A stretch of 64,000 bases of DNA from Pelagomonas calceolata. Lineage: Eukaryota. Of the stretch, positions 35,181 through 38,730 are shown one piece after another. Every line of letters starts with the position of its first letter. Positions within the stretch are counted from its first letter, which is position 1. Location: the NCBI GenBank assembly GCA_918797485.1, contig CAKKNE010000002.1:4216001-4280000 (forward strand), written 5' to 3'. The position numbers and the translations under genes are program-made. The notes below the pieces were generated by a model. That model was given only the letters and a program-made list of their open reading frames with translations. It made no database searches and was not told the DNA's origin.

Positions 35181-37526
35181 ATGCGGCAGCACAAGGTCAG
35201 GAGCAGAGCTGCACTGCACCTGCTCCTTTTGCGAGCAGCAGGGGCCCTGCAAGCCGTAGCGCCGCGCAAAGCCGCGCCAGTCCTCGCGCCGCCGACGGCG
35301 GACTTGGTTCTGATTGATGGGGACAATGTGAGAGGCAAGACGGCCTTCGCGGTCTCCGCGCAGAGCCTCCTCGCGCAGACGAGGACCTTCGCGGTGACGC
35401 AAGACGCGGTCCTATACATCGACCACGGCCTCGCCGCCGAGTGCCTCGCCGTGGACGACAAGCTGCGAGTGGTCTTCGCCGGCACGGCCCAAAGCGCCGA
35501 CGACTGCATCGTGAGGGACGTTGCATACTTACTAGAAGAAAACCCCTCTTTAAGTGTCAGCGTCGTTACATCCGACTCGGGTCTCATCGCGCGGTGTAGG
35601 AAAGCAGCGCGCGCTAGGGGGCGCAACGGCCGCCTCGACATTTGTGGGTCGGTGCGCTTTGCGGAAACGGTTTTGGACGAAGCCCTTGGCGCTGACGCCG
35701 TGGACCACGTTTCTGCAAATGAAGACCACGTGGCCGTCGCCAAGGCCCTGCAGGTCTCGACGGAGCGCGCGTCGCTGAAACGAGTGCGCAATAAACGACT
35801 CACTAAAAAACGGCGAAAAGGCACCACAAACGACGTGACCGCGTCCTTGGCTTCGTTAAATGGCTTAAATGATAAGCCGATCAAGACGCCCGACGCCGCC
35901 CTCGAGGAGCTCGTGTCGAATGGTGCGACGCTACCTCAACTCGAGGCCGCCATCAGGCAAGCGGGAGGCGGCCTTCGAGGGCGCGAGAAGACCTGGGAGC
36001 GGTGCGTGCGCGCGGCCTACTTGCACAAGTGTCTTCGAGGTAAGACGGCAGCACCGCATAAGGTGCTCGACGGCCTCGCGGTCTACGTCAACAAGCTCAT
36101 GACTAGCCGGGCATTGGCGCGCGAGGCCGTCCTGAAAACTGCTAAAAGGCCGCCCCGCCTCAAGGTGAAGAAACGTCTAGAACCCCTCAAACAACTGAAA
36201 CAGATTGAGAGCGTCTCCTCAAAGACGTGGCCGGGCGGCTGGCCGGTTGACGTGAGCGTCATCGAGACGCCGAGAGGTGCTTTCTTGCCAGATCTCGTCA
36301 ATTGTTCAGTAGCTCTAGTATCGGACACGCACGGCTTTCGTATTGACGATTTGCCGATGAAGGGCGACGTGTTAATCCACGCGGGCGACTTTTGGCTCGA
36401 TACGCAGAACCGGAATAGGAACGCCAAGGCGTTTGAGGACTTCGACGCGTGGCTCTATCGGCAGGACTTTACGCACAAGATCGTGCTGCGGGGTAATCAT
36501 GATCCTGTCAGGTGTGAATTCAAGGCGTCGAACGCTACTTATATCGCCGCGAAAAGGCAGACTATTGATATAAATGGTCTGAAGGTCTACTGCGTGCCTC
36601 ATGGTTCGGCTGTCTCCTTGACGAAGGACTTCAAGGCTCTGAAGGAGTTACGCGACGCGGACATACTGCTGACCCATGCACCTCCTAGAGGTACGTTGGA
36701 TACTACGTATGAGGGCAACAACGCCGGCTCCAAGGCCTTGCGGGACGCCTACTACAATGCTTGTGACGACGAGGCGCCGACGCTGTGGGTCTGCGGCCAC
36801 ATCCATGAAAGTGCAGGCGCCGCGCGCGTCGGGGCCACGACGATAATTAATGCAGGAATGGCGAACGCGGGCCGCGCCAAAAGATTGGACCGCGGCTTCG
36901 TCGCCGTCGGGGCGGATCTTGCAGAGGCGCCGCGCGCGCCTCCCTCACCACCTCCTGTTGAGGAAGTCGAGGAGGAACTGACCATGGTGGGCCCCGCGCT
37001 GCCTCGTTTGTTAGCCGTTGATCTGGGCGAAAAGACCGTCGGGGTAGCTTTATATGATGAACAAGGTGCGCTGCTCGACTTCGCTGCGGCGACCGATGAA
37101 GAGGACGGCGCCCGGGCCGTCGTCGCCGCGGCGGAGCGGTGCCTTGGCGGGCGCCAAGCGACCGTCGTTGTGTGCGAGGGCACGGGGCGCCTCCTGGCGG
37201 ACGAGGCGTTCGACGCGCTTTCCCAGAGCGGCCTCGTGGCTTGCGAGGCGCCGCACGTCATCAACCCCGACGAGTGGCGCGCGGCCGTGCTGGCGCCGCG
37301 CGAGCGCGTCAACGCCAAAAAGGCAAAACACGCCGCGCGGTTGGTGGCGCGCCAACTCGCGGGCGGCCTCGAACATTGGCGCGAGGACCTGACGACGGAC
37401 GCGGCGGAGGCGTGCGTCTTCGGCGCGTGGGCTTGCACAGAGCTGGGCTGGCGCGATGATGCTATCGTAGAGCGGTTCTCGAACGGGGACTTGCGGGTGG
37501 TGGCAAAGCGGCCGCTTGTGGATTAA
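35181..37526 (+). CDS. Fusion of NYN/YacP-like (PIN) domain, calcineurin-like metallophosphoesterase and RuvC/YqgF-like RNase H-fold domain
   Basis: LIDGDNVRG..SADDCIV..VVTSDSGL; VSDTHG..IHAGDF..RGNHD..THAPP..CGHIHE; LLAVDLGEKTVGVA..VVCEG..PDEWR..TTDAAEA. Hydrophobic presequence at the N-terminus. Confidence 0.75.
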   Translation: MRQHKVRSRAALHLLLLRAAGALQAVAPRKAAPVLAPPTADLVLIDGDNVRGKTAFAVSAQSLLAQTRTFAVTQDAVLYIDHGLAAECLAVDDKLRVVFAGTAQSADDCIVRDVAYLLEENPSLSVSVVTSDSGLIARCRKAARARGRNGRLDICGSVRFAETVLDEALGADAVDHVSANEDHVAVAKALQVSTERASLKRVRNKRLTKKRRKGTTNDVTASLASLNGLNDKPIKTPDAALEELVSNGATLPQLEAAIRQAGGGLRGREKTWERCVRAAYLHKCLRGKTAAPHKVLDGLAVYVNKLMTSRALAREAVLKTAKRPPRLKVKKRLEPLKQLKQIESVSSKTWPGGWPVDVSVIETPRGAFLPDLVNCSVALVSDTHGFRIDDLPMKGDVLIHAGDFWLDTQNRNRNAKAFEDFDAWLYRQDFTHKIVLRGNHDPVRCEFKASNATYIAAKRQTIDINGLKVYCVPHGSAVSLTKDFKALKELRDADILLTHAPPRGTLDTTYEGNNAGSKALRDAYYNACDDEAPTLWVCGHIHESAGAARVGATTIINAGMANAGRAKRLDRGFVAVGADLAEAPRAPPSPPPVEEVEEELTMVGPALPRLLAVDLGEKTVGVALYDEQGALLDFAAATDEEDGARAVVAAAERCLGGRQATVVVCEGTGRLLADEAFDALSQSGLVACEAPHVINPDEWRAAVLAPRERVNAKKAKHAARLVARQLAGGLEHWREDLTTDAAEACVFGAWACTELGWRDDAIVERFSNGDLRVVAKRPLVD

Positions 37527-37556
37527 CAACTTATGTTTCTTACAGACTACAATGAA

Positions 37557-37631
37557 ACGTGCTCTGCCGCTGAGCTACTGAAGGAGATCCTTCAGGCAGG
37601 ATTCGAACCCGCGGCCACGTGCTTATAAGGC
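37557..37631 (-). tRNA. Circularly permuted tRNA-Ile(UAU) gene or pseudogene: 3' part (37631-37588), TCT linker, 5' part (37584-37557)
   Basis: Reassembled 72 nt: CCTTCAG TA GCTC AGCGGCA GAGC A CGTGC CTTATAA GCACG TGGCC GCGGG TTCGAAT CCTGC CTGAAGG A. All four stems pair and the invariant bases are present. Confidence 0.8.
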
Positions 37632-37668
37632 AATTTTTTGGGTGCTGTGCGTAGTCTTGGGGTCGTTG

Positions 37669-38730
37669 TCATGCGCCCTCGAAAATCTCGCGGAACACGC
37701 CGAAGTTGTCCGGGCCGTAGCCCGCGTGGAAGATGGCGAAGGCGACGACGTCGAAGTGCTCCTTCCTCTTGCGCACCTCTTGCTTGTAGGTCTCGGCGAC
37801 GATGGGACTCGGATTTTGGAACGCGCCGCAGCCGAACGCACTGAGCACGACGTGTCGCACGCCCGCCGCCATGCAGGTGTCTAGTTGCGCCGCGATGCGT
37901 TTCCGCAGTTCGGCATTGTCGTAGCTTTTCTGCGACGCGCCGCGCATGTCGACGGCGGCGCTTCTCAACTCAAAAAATGGGAAGACGTCCTCGTCCGCCA
38001 GCAGGCCGTAGCCCAATCCATCACGTTCCTCAGGCCCCTTGATACACACGCGCGGGCTCGCCGTGTCCAGGTAGACGCGCCCGTCCTGACCGCTCACGAG
38101 CCTGTGCATGGCGTCCGAGTACTCCATATCGTCTCGGCTGTATCCCTCGTCGTGGAAGTGGCCTGCGCGCGCGGACCGTGAGTACAAACTCACGACGGGA
38201 CTCGAACCCGCAATCTCCCCCCCTGGTTGGGCGCATTGTCCATTTTAGGCCACGCGAGTAAAGCGACGCCGGTCCGCGCAGTCCGTGCGCCGGAACATGT
38301 TCTCCTCCTGGGCTACCTGGCCGTGGGCGTAGCCACCTCCAAAAAGGTAGGCGTTTGCCATGTTGAGAACTGCGAAGGTACGGCCGTAACTCTTCGTCAG
38401 CGTCAGGGTAACGTCGCCCCAGTCGCCCGGCAGCACCTCGACAACGGTCGACGACGGTTGCTGCGCTCCCGAGGCCCACCGTGCCAGATTCTTTGATGCG
38501 AGGTCGTGAAAGGCTCGCCGCTTGTCTGGCGTGGAGAGCCGCGCCAGTGTGTCTCTCAAAACTTCGATGCGGAGGTAGCCCGCTGGATCCCACTCGCGCC
38601 GGCTCGGAAGGGGTTCGAAGATCTCTTGACCGTGCTCTGCGACGTCGCCATCTTCGAAGAGGGTTTCGCCCTCGTGGCGCTGCTTCCGGCGCCGCCGCTG
38701 CGCCGCGTCGTCCTCGTCTAGGGCTGCCAT
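37669..38730 (-). CDS. TIGR02452/DUF2263 microbial-type PARG-like macrodomain protein; exons 38730-38280 and 38162-37669
   Basis: VLNMANAYLFGGGYAHGQVAQEENMFRRT and HVVLSAFGCGAFQNP. Removing a 117-nt GC..AG intron (38279-38163) gives ..RRTDC-HFH.. in frame and removes an in-frame TAA. Confidence 0.85.
38163..38279 (-). mobile_element. Introner-like GC-AG intron with 10-bp terminal inverted repeats
   Basis: Starts GCGCGGACCG, ends CGGTCCGCGCGCGCAG; repeats at 38270-38279 and 38169-38178. Confidence 0.55.
38187..38259 (-). pseudogene. tRNA-Arg-like pseudogene inside the intron
   Basis: Acceptor ACTCGCG/CGTGAGT, A box TGGCCTAAAATGG, intact T arm GCGGG TTCGAGT CCCGT, AGATT variable loop; anticodon arm collapsed (CCCAACCAGGGGGGG). 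Confidence 0.75.

What the first reader, a model, noticed from the sequence alone, without database searches (positions are those of the whole stretch)
37557..37631. Circularly permuted tRNA-Ile(UAU) gene in a stramenopile-like genome
Seen: the minus strand reads GCCTTATAAGCACGTGGCCGCGGGTTCGAATCCTGCCTGAAGGA (tRNA positions 30-73), then TCT, then CCTTCAGTAGCTCAGCGGCAGAGCACGT (positions 1-29). Swapping the parts gives a 72-nt cloverleaf: 7/7 acceptor, 4/4 D, 5/5 anticodon and 5/5 T pairs (one G-U), with U8, A14, G18G19, U33 and TTCGA intact. Established: permuted tRNA genes are known from Cyanidioschyzon, prasinophytes, a chlorarachniophyte nucleomorph and Thermofilum; I do not recall one in stramenopiles. 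Oddities: the break is in the anticodon stem (28/29 or 29/30, shared T); the linker is only 3 nt, the length of CCA; I cannot fold a bulge-helix-bulge at the termini; C1:G72/A73 is a eukaryotic Tyr identity set although the anticodon is Ile. Inference: either a functional permuted gene with non-standard processing or a recent copy of a circularised tRNA.
Basis: partly seen in the sequence, partly recalled or inferred. Interest (0 to 1): 0.88.

Follow-up and report, generated by a model that had tools for sequence, protein, structure and literature searches.

The report
Clamped tRNA mimic in algal mRNA
A marine eukaryote (likely an alga) keeps almost unchanged, in the tail of one messenger RNA, a back-to-front tRNA wrapped in a small RNA clamp that also occurs in many viruses and bacteria, mostly with a gene for a protein predicted to be Ro60-like; it is likely a Y-RNA-like tRNA mimic rather than a working tRNA gene.

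Summary
The permuted order is real (reads collinear, cloverleaf perfect), but the 75 nt are the core of a 117-nt RNA (37542-37658, minus). A 7-bp stem with an ACAGCA motif, 5' AAG and 3' CUGU clamps the two tRNA parts. The RNA lies in the 3' UTR of a polyadenylated PARG mRNA and differs at 1 of 115 positions in two wild relatives (third codon positions 11-18%). The same design recurs in phages, giant viruses and bacteria, permuted or as a tRNA with the clamp inserted at 28/29-29/30. 28 of 30 carrier viruses encode DUF2828/DUF7788, whose model matches Ro60; bacterial copies often flank rtcB. There is no BHB motif, the discriminator is unconstrained (A73 in 14/38 vs 27/29 true tRNA-Ile), and many members lack the anticodon arm. 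Best reading: a Y-RNA-like tRNA mimic (0.55). Clamp-guided splicing into a real tRNA stays open (0.2). No partner protein was shown in the host. The closest copies are in marine giant viruses. This scan noted the family before on viral DNA; a nuclear, mRNA-embedded copy is the new part. New variant; interest 0.7.

The parts
37542..37658 (-). Whole clamped tRNA-like RNA (117 nt), 5' AAG to 3' CUGU
   Evidence: one CM hit, 104.5 bits (the window sequence was in the model)
37651..37658 (-). 5' AAG and 5' strand of the 7-bp clamp stem
   Evidence: covaries with the 3' strand across 40 members
37643..37648 (-). ACAGCA motif, 2 nt after the stem; predicted protein-binding tag
   Evidence: seen in 3 of 8 viral look-alikes before it was used as a query; fixed by the pattern in later scans
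37588..37632 (-). tRNA positions 29/30-73: 3-bp anticodon hairpin with UAU (37627-37625), variable loop, T arm, acceptor 3' strand, A73
37585..37587 (-). 3-nt linker (TCT) closing the acceptor stem
37557..37584 (-). tRNA positions 1-28/29: acceptor 5' strand, D arm, lower anticodon stem
   Evidence: pairs 27-28 with 42-43 form in 40 of 40 aligned members
37542..37550 (-). 3' strand of the clamp stem and terminal CUGU
37523..37668 (-). 3' UTR of the PARG mRNA that carries the element; poly(A) added near 37523
   Evidence: stranded reads and poly-T loose ends at 37523 in 2 of 4 runs
37669..38730 (-). Host gene: microbial-type PARG (PF10021), two exons, GC-AG intron 38163-38279
   Evidence: Pfam 1.6e-10 on exon 1; 117-nt skip in 81-130 reads per run; spliced frame open
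35181..37526 (+). Convergent neighbour: metallophosphoesterase gene (context only)

Best explanation
The element is a 117-nt RNA in the 3' UTR of a PARG mRNA in which a conserved stem plus ACAGCA motif clamps a permuted, closed-acceptor tRNA fold, and it likely works unspliced as a Y-RNA-like tRNA mimic whose clamp would bind a protein predicted to be Ro60-like (DUF2828/DUF7788, ROT-type). Shown: the sequence, the covarying structure, transcription inside the mRNA, purifying selection in the host lineage, and the link of the family to DUF2828/DUF7788 and rtcB genes in viruses and bacteria. Inferred: the two short helices of the split anticodon stem stack, so the RNA shows a full L-shaped tRNA with an anticodon loop but no free CCA end. 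The clamp tethers it to the Ro-like ring, and the tRNA part recruits or decoys tRNA-handling enzymes (RtcB-type ligases, anticodon nucleases), as proposed for YrlA-Rsr-RtcB. In this host it would act from the mRNA tail or be released from it. Its closest relatives are in marine giant viruses, so exchange with such a virus is likely; the direction was not tested.
For: Same order as YrlA (T arm, closed acceptor, D arm); YrlA is the best Rfam match, 34.8 bits. Structure in 40 members: 96.3% of cells paired, covariation 0.82 vs 0.20 shuffled (acceptor, T and clamp pairing were selection criteria, the anticodon helices were not filtered by script). DUF7788 in 28 of 30 carrier virus records vs 4 of 29 tRNA-rich controls, and 3 of those 4 controls turned out to carry a strong cassette. 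In prokaryote genome loci, 24 of 38 scanned have DUF2828/7788 within 2 kb, 8 RtcB, 1 TROVE. The AlphaFold model of the DUF2828/7788 protein has Ro60 as its two best PDB matches (E 1.1e-5 and 9.8e-5). Not destined for charging: A73 in 14 of 38 permuted UAU members vs 27 of 29 ordinary tRNA-Ile(UAU), p 2e-6 with kin not removed. A full anticodon arm is present in only 64 of 109 viral/metagenome and 22 of 76 prokaryote-genome members; 16 of 185 have acceptor loops of 2 nt or less and 15 of 185 are UUCG/GNRA-closed. The nearest giant-virus loci carry an ordinary tRNA-Ile(UAU) about 1 kb away. Host: 1 of 115 differences vs 51/284 and 25/230 third positions and 14/170 and 10/168 upstream non-coding sites.
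Against: No Ro60 or DUF2828 gene was shown in the host (no genome held; none among 7 window proteins scanned). The giant-virus bin with the closest cassette has no DUF7788 or ROT match. The ROT model is of middling quality (pLDDT 66, TM 0.38) and had no sequence match in the PDB. Control virus records are shorter (90% complete or more: 15 of 16 vs 1 of 7). Where the arm exists it looks canonical (U33 123/128, A37 120/128, A38 125/128), and this copy has a 7-bp acceptor with A73, all compatible with a real tRNA. YrlA's GNCGAAN motif is absent. The two host relatives share the same single change and are not independent.
Confidence: 0.55

Rival explanations
1. A true permuted tRNA gene of a new type: the clamp replaces the BHB motif and guides cutting at 28/29 (or 29/30) and RtcB-type ligation; RNase P, tRNase Z and CCA addition then open the acceptor loop, giving tRNA-Ile(UAU) from an mRNA tail. 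The unpermuted insert-bearing forms would be intron-containing genes of the same class.
For: The rejoined sequence is a perfect cloverleaf. Removing the clamp restores an exact 5-bp anticodon stem in 63 of 106 permuted and 65 of 87 unpermuted members vs 2-16 of 193 in shifted registers. Loops are mostly canonical and cover many real anticodons. RtcB genes lie next to 8 of 38 prokaryote loci. No other copy was laid from host DNA and ATA codons are used.
Against: The discriminator and the 1:72 pair are free to vary; the arm is missing in about half of the family; the junction wanders between 28/29 and 29/30, 5-25 nt from the motif; A32 in 39 of 128; no Pol III terminator after the element (sequence); viruses keep an ordinary tRNA-Ile(UAU) nearby. 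Eukaryotic tRNA-Ile(IAU) can read AUA (established knowledge), so the host need not depend on this copy.
Confidence: 0.2
2. The clamp stays, but RNase P and tRNase Z cut the acceptor loop and CCA is added, as in M. smegmatis YrlA; the PARG mRNA would then end in a two-piece, possibly chargeable tRNA-like structure that controls its stability or translation.
For: The acceptor has 7 pairs plus A73, the feature linked to RNase P cleavage of M. smegmatis YrlA (PMC4201824, passages); the element sits on the mRNA strand 20 nt before the poly(A) site.
Against: No pile-up of read ends or loose ends at 37585-37588 in four poly(A) runs, though only a large fraction would show and cut RNA lacks poly(A).
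Confidence: 0.12
3. In this host the cassette has lost its Ro-like partner and is kept as a Class-I-like small RNA or as a 3'-end and stability element bound by some other protein.
For: It has the AAG start, short stem and CUGU end of dictyostelid Class I RNAs, which bind the RRM protein Rnp1A (PMC7919456, passages). The 27 nt flanking the cassette are also invariant in both relatives. Five read starts at 37541 in one of four runs coincide with the CUGU end (weak).
Against: The tRNA part is as conserved as the clamp; length and two motif positions differ from Class I; no Rfam Class I match at E up to 10.
Confidence: 0.1
4. A dead, recently inserted copy of a circularised tRNA, or a mis-assembly.
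For: Only two fully sequenced wild relatives were obtained, both close (about 92% DNA identity).
Against: Collinear reads and contigs; 1 of 115 differences against neutral rates, p from 3e-9 to 7e-3 depending on the baseline; an intact family-wide clamp; no donor copy laid from host DNA.
Confidence: 0.03

Closest known systems
YrlA-type bacterial and phage Y RNAs with Rsr/Ro60 (Rfam RF02553; PMC4201824; bioRxiv 10.1101/312249)
   Same: T arm, closed acceptor hairpin, D arm in that order inside a stem that joins the 5' and 3' ends; gene neighbours are a Ro60-fold protein and RtcB.
   Different: ACAGCA instead of GNCGAAN(0-1)G; the partner is DUF2828/DUF7788 rather than TROVE; an anticodon hairpin is kept, which YrlA lacks; score far below Rfam's cut-off; this copy is nuclear and inside an mRNA 3' UTR.
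ROT/TROVE RNA-repair platform with a tRNA-like partner, and b7a-tRNA (Burroughs and Aravind 2016, not held; seen only through passages of PMC7824862 and 10.1101/312249)
   Same: tRNA-like RNA predicted beside Ro-related, Band-7 and RtcB genes; Band-7 genes flank two members here.
   Different: I could not see how that paper defines the RNAs, so identity with this family is untested; the bacterial members may already be described there. No eukaryotic copy is mentioned in the passages I saw.
Circularly permuted tRNA genes of Cyanidioschyzon, prasinophytes, the Bigelowiella nucleomorph and Thermofilum (PMC3978253)
   Same: 3' part before 5' part, short linker (1-74 nt in print, 3 here), canonical cloverleaf on rejoining.
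   Different: No BHB; junction 28/29-29/30 is not among the listed 15/16, 20/21, 37/38, 50/51, 59/60; no TATA-like or T-run signals; lies in a Pol II transcript; the ends are held by a conserved clamp.
Dictyostelid Class I RNAs (PMC7919456)
   Same: 5' AAG, a stem of about 6 bp joining the ends with free sequence, a conserved motif next to the 5' strand, 3' CUGU.
   Different: 117 nt with a tRNA domain instead of 42-65 nt with a variable loop; motif positions 3 and 11 differ; not a free-standing gene. The paper calls Class I unique to dictyostelids.

Membership tests
Circularly permuted tRNA gene (C. merolae type) | 3' part upstream of 5' part; rejoins to a canonical cloverleaf | tested here: met
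Circularly permuted tRNA gene (C. merolae type) | BHB or BHB-like motif formed by leader and trailer | tested here: not met
   0 of 4 central pairs at 28/29 and at 29/30
Circularly permuted tRNA gene (C. merolae type) | Junction at a reported position (15/16, 20/21, 37/38, 50/51, 59/60) | tested here: not met
   28/29 or 29/30 here; Table 1 of PMC3978253
Circularly permuted tRNA gene (C. merolae type) | Upstream TATA-like sequence and downstream T stretch (Pol III unit) | tested here: not met
   Read from the sequence: no TATA in the 40 nt between the PARG stop and the anticodon arm, no run of 4 T before the poly(A) site; transcribed in an mRNA
Circularly permuted tRNA gene (C. merolae type) | Circular intermediate and mature, CCA-ended, charged tRNA | not testable with these tools
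   Only poly(A) reads and contigs were available; no joint seen, which is uninformative for tRNA
YrlA Y RNA (RF02553) | T arm, closed acceptor stem-loop, D arm within an end-joining stem | tested here: met
YrlA Y RNA (RF02553) | Rfam gathering score (69 bits) | tested here: not met
   34.8 bits, model positions 23-86 only
YrlA Y RNA (RF02553) | GNCGAAN(0-1)G motif near the 5' end | tested here: not met
   motif from PMC4201824; absent from the 5' strand
YrlA Y RNA (RF02553) | Encoded within about 4 kb of a Ro60 gene | tested here: not met
   window neighbours are PARG, metallophosphoesterase, DGAT and CBS genes; met in spirit by viral and bacterial members with DUF2828/7788
YrlA Y RNA (RF02553) | Bound by a Ro60-family protein | not testable with these tools
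   needs a binding assay
Dictyostelid Class I RNA | 5' AAG, short end-joining stem, 3' CUGU | tested here: met
Dictyostelid Class I RNA | 11-nt motif with T3, C6, C9, A10, A11 | tested here: inconclusive
   With my inferred register (ACAGCA = positions 5-10) C6, C9 and A10 match, T3 and A11 do not; A11 holds in 178 of 193 family members
Dictyostelid Class I RNA | Length 42-65 nt and a Rfam Class I match | tested here: not met
   117 nt; no Class I hit at E up to 10
Dictyostelid Class I RNA | DUSE promoter element about 60 nt upstream | not tested
   60 nt upstream is PARG coding sequence; the DUSE letters were not in the passages read

The most novel reading that the evidence does not exclude
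The ACAGCA clamp is a new, BHB-independent class of tRNA intron: with a Ro60-like protein and RtcB it is cut out at 28/29-29/30, so hundreds of hidden phage and giant-virus tRNA genes, straight or permuted, are real, and this alga makes its tRNA-Ile(UAU) from the 3' UTR of an mRNA with a virus-shared cassette.
Probability: 0.2. Interest if true: 0.93.

Novelty: new variant of a known kind. Interest (0 to 1): 0.7.

Why it matters
tRNA-mimicking Y RNAs are described from bacteria and phages; the papers read say the tRNA domain is not apparent in animal Y RNAs. A selected, nuclear, mRNA-embedded copy in a marine eukaryote, nearest to giant-virus copies, would extend that design to eukaryotes and point to RNA-repair or anti-nuclease parts traded between algae and their viruses. 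The clamp also links three things treated apart: YrlA-like mimics, the unnamed RNAs beside DUF2828/DUF7788-rtcB genes, and the Class I RNAs thought unique to social amoebae. That gives a testable candidate partner (DUF2828/7788, a domain pair of unknown function also present in plants and fungi) for all of them. If splicing occurs instead, it is a new route to tRNA.

Tried and rejected
Tyr reading (type II permutation at 37/38 with a 9-nt intron, using a downstream GUA-like stretch): rejected, that stretch is the clamp's 3' strand and varies with its partner across the family. BHB at either junction: none. Exact acceptor pattern in viral contigs: 0 hits. INPHARED blastn with the window element and with L053: only ordinary tRNA pieces, no record covering 80%. 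Rfam: only sub-threshold YrlA. Sequence search of the PDB with the ROT alignment: nothing at E below 0.27. ROT in the nearest giant-virus bin: not found. ROT in the host: left open; no genome, the homolog list named no alga, and the protein atlas gave no answer. No joined 28/29 or 29/30 form in poly(A) reads or metatranscriptome contigs: not evidence, as these libraries drop tRNA. A metatranscriptome contig with another acceptor hairpin and two with a 1-nt gap at 37626 could not be assigned to an organism. Promoter/terminator scan is sigma-70 type and empty. The CM also scores ordinary tandem tRNAs at 30-60 bits, so only hits of 80 bits or more were counted. PMC6514570 held nothing relevant. 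Chance matches were dropped before counts: 11 of 19 loci are tandem tRNAs; 42 of 114, 26 of 107 and 44 of 121 unique matches had fewer than 6 of 7 acceptor pairs.

Full report
Observation. On the minus strand, 37631-37557 holds tRNA positions 30-73, a TCT linker and positions 1-29. Swapped in a script, the parts give a 72-nt tRNA-Ile(UAU) by ARAGORN. A T on either side makes the junction 28/29 or 29/30. Neither junction can form a BHB motif (0 of 4 central pairs). No whole genome is held and no call names the host. It is a eukaryote with a spliced gene, GC about 0.63, present in marine metatranscriptomes, with one protein identical to an NCBI/MMETSP record on a 6.1-Mb contig. From recall this fits a pelagophyte alga; that label is an inference.

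Context. Stranded poly(A) reads from four runs of one sample (6-12% of each run read) show that the element lies in the 3' UTR of a minus-strand microbial-type PARG mRNA (PF10021). The stop is at 37669, poly(A) is added near 37523, depth over the element is 18-210, and the only joint is a 117-nt intron. The order is therefore not an assembly error. In two DNA runs, which may be sources of the window, depth is flat over the element and no second or unpermuted copy was laid, although 45-55-nt pieces of another repeat in the same stretch were found. A differently sequenced tRNA-Ile(UAU) elsewhere would not show in this test.

The element is larger than reported. A viral-contig scan for the permuted layout gave 19 loci: 11 ordinary tandem tRNAs and 8 with the same layout. 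Comparing flanks revealed a stem joining leader and trailer, followed in 3 of the 8 and in the window by ACAGCA. In the window this clamp runs from AAG at 37658 to CUGU at 37542. Scans on the motif gave 67 viral and 67 metagenome loci for UAU (many viral ones were chance matches). Without the anticodon they gave 125 and 120 viral loci from scans stopped early, estimated at about 900 and 670 stretches in the collection, chance matches included, and 122 loci in prokaryote genomes. With at least 6 of 7 acceptor pairs: 72 of 114 unique permuted matches, 81 of 107 unpermuted matches in which the clamp hairpin is inserted into the anticodon stem, and 77 of 121 in prokaryote genomes (some may be phage contigs in bins). 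The permuted form is thus a circular permutation of the insert-bearing form.

Structure. On 40 permuted members RNAalifold predicts the clamp, anticodon hairpin, T arm, closed acceptor and D arm. With the named structure 96.3% of cells pair, covariation is 0.82 against 0.20 in shuffles, and slid controls pair at 25-41%. Members had been filtered on acceptor, T and clamp pairing and picked by eye from 103, so those helices are biased. The 27-28:42-43 helix, not filtered by script, pairs in 40 of 40. Removing the clamp restores a 5-bp anticodon stem in 63 of 106 permuted and 65 of 87 unpermuted members, against 2-16 of 193 in shifted registers.

Selection in the host. Two wild syntenic contigs (L094, L139; about 92% DNA identity) differ at 1 of 115 cassette positions, the same one in both. 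Third codon positions of the flanking genes differ at 51 of 284 and 25 of 230, upstream non-coding DNA at 14 of 170 and 10 of 168 (binomial p 3e-9 to 7e-3). The 27 flanking UTR bases are invariant too. The closest non-host members are 70-74% identical (others 48-66%) and come from a giant-virus bin and similar marine contigs. A tree of 40 UAU members joins them with the host copies at 86/92, below the tool's bar for firm support. The direction of transfer was not tested.

Partner genes. DUF7788 is found in 28 of 30 carrier virus records and 4 of 29 tRNA-rich control records (4 more controls were not held). Controls are shorter (90% complete or more: 15 of 16 vs 1 of 7), and 3 of the 4 positive controls carry a cassette scoring 80 bits or more. 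Among 44 unique UAU members with up to 1.5 kb of flank, 8 had DUF2828/7788, 1 TROVE and 2 Band-7 among the 50 ORFs scanned; six of the eight are related phages. Of 74 prokaryote loci passing the filter, 38 had long ORFs in the DNA held: 24 DUF2828/7788, 8 RtcB, 1 TROVE. An AlphaFold model of the phage protein (pLDDT 66, pTM 0.51) has Ro60 as its two best PDB matches (E 1.1e-5, TM 0.38); a sequence search found none. Against the link: the giant-virus bin with the nearest cassette has no such gene, and none was shown in the host.

Mimic or precursor. For a precursor: the exact register, canonical loops where the arm exists (U33 123, A37 120, A38 125 of 128), many real anticodons, RtcB neighbours, and in this copy a 7-bp acceptor with A73. 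For a mimic: A73 in 14 of 38 permuted UAU members against 27 of 29 ordinary tRNA-Ile(UAU) from the same loci (p 2e-6, kin not removed); a full arm in only 64 of 109 viral/metagenome and 22 of 76 prokaryote members; 16 of 185 acceptor loops of 2 nt or less and 15 of 185 closed by UUCG or GNRA; 5-25 nt between motif and junction; A32 in 39 of 128; an ordinary tRNA-Ile(UAU) about 1 kb from the nearest viral copies; and no Pol III signals here. I put the unspliced Y-RNA-like mimic at 0.55, clamp-guided splicing at 0.2, acceptor cleavage without joining at 0.12, a partner-less Class-I-like or 3'-end role at 0.1 and a dead copy at 0.03. Binding, stacking and any repair or decoy role are inferred, not shown.

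What is known. PMC3978253 (parts 1-3 of 11 read, with Table 1) lists 34 permuted genes, none from stramenopiles, none at 28/29-29/30, all tied to BHB motifs. PMC13578239 (passages) adds no stramenopile case. PMC4201824 (passages) and bioRxiv 10.1101/312249 (passages) define YrlA: same arm order, closed acceptor, no anticodon loop, GNCGAAN motif, near Rsr. PMC7824862 (passages) mentions a ROT/TROVE protein with a tRNA-like partner in RNA repair, citing Burroughs and Aravind 2016, which is not held; equating DUF2828/7788 with ROT is from recall, and the bacterial RNAs may be described there or in supplements I did not see. PMC7919456 (passages) gives the Class I hallmarks, three of which are met here, and reports none outside dictyostelids. 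Ten literature searches and three Rfam scans found no description of this clamp family or of a nuclear copy; most subscription papers are outside that library. This scan's own notes had already seen the cassette in a giant virus and a phage and proposed the Ro-like and Class I links. I had reached the family and the DUF2828 link before reading them; the Class I lead came from them.

Verdict. Real, selected and transcribed; not a member of the known permuted tRNA genes, YrlA or Class I by their own tests, but it works most likely like a YrlA-type mimic with a Class-I-like clamp. New variant of a known kind; interest 0.7.

Noticed in passing
window 38163-38279 (-): The PARG intron is GC-AG with 10-nt terminal inverted repeats (introner-like) and holds a tRNA-Arg-like sequence (38187-38259; ARAGORN calls it Leu, Rfam tRNA 32 bits). 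At least three other copies of its 3' part exist in host DNA, one with a CCU anticodon arm.
   Followed up: partly
L094 about 1045-1140 (intron of the PARG gene): In one wild relative the same intron is about 90 nt longer and carries an extra tRNA-Cys(GCA)-like sequence after the Arg-like one: an intron that gains tRNA pieces.
   Followed up: no
L072 and L087 (tRNA clusters, 3 kb): Marine giant-virus-type tRNA clusters hold about ten ACAGCA clamps each, most of them small stem-closed units without a tRNA domain, of Class I size.
   Followed up: partly
L004, L016, L017, L096, L457: A sister type with the same permuted layout but a GUUACUUC-type or longer leader; L096 and L457 lie next to true TROVE/Ro60 genes.
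   Followed up: partly
L026 about 120 nt upstream of its cassette; L050: Clamps that enclose tRNA domains broken at other places (for example inside the acceptor 3' strand), so the clamp can be grafted at several positions.
   Followed up: no
L415, L419, L431, L440, L442, L443, L450: Bacterial rtcB - clamp RNA(s) - DUF2828/7788 gene rows, a parallel of the rsr-yrl-rtcB operon; L419 has three tandem cassettes.
   Followed up: partly
window 35181-37526 (+): The convergent gene joins a NYN-like N-terminal region (weak, E 6.5e-4), a metallophosphoesterase domain and a C-terminal region that a source labels RNase H-fold/Holliday-junction-resolvase-like: a possible RNA-end-processing fusion next to the cassette.
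   Followed up: no
window 37626: Metatranscriptome contigs in two studies show a 1-nt gap in the anticodon loop, probably from a more distant relative; not assignable.
   Followed up: no
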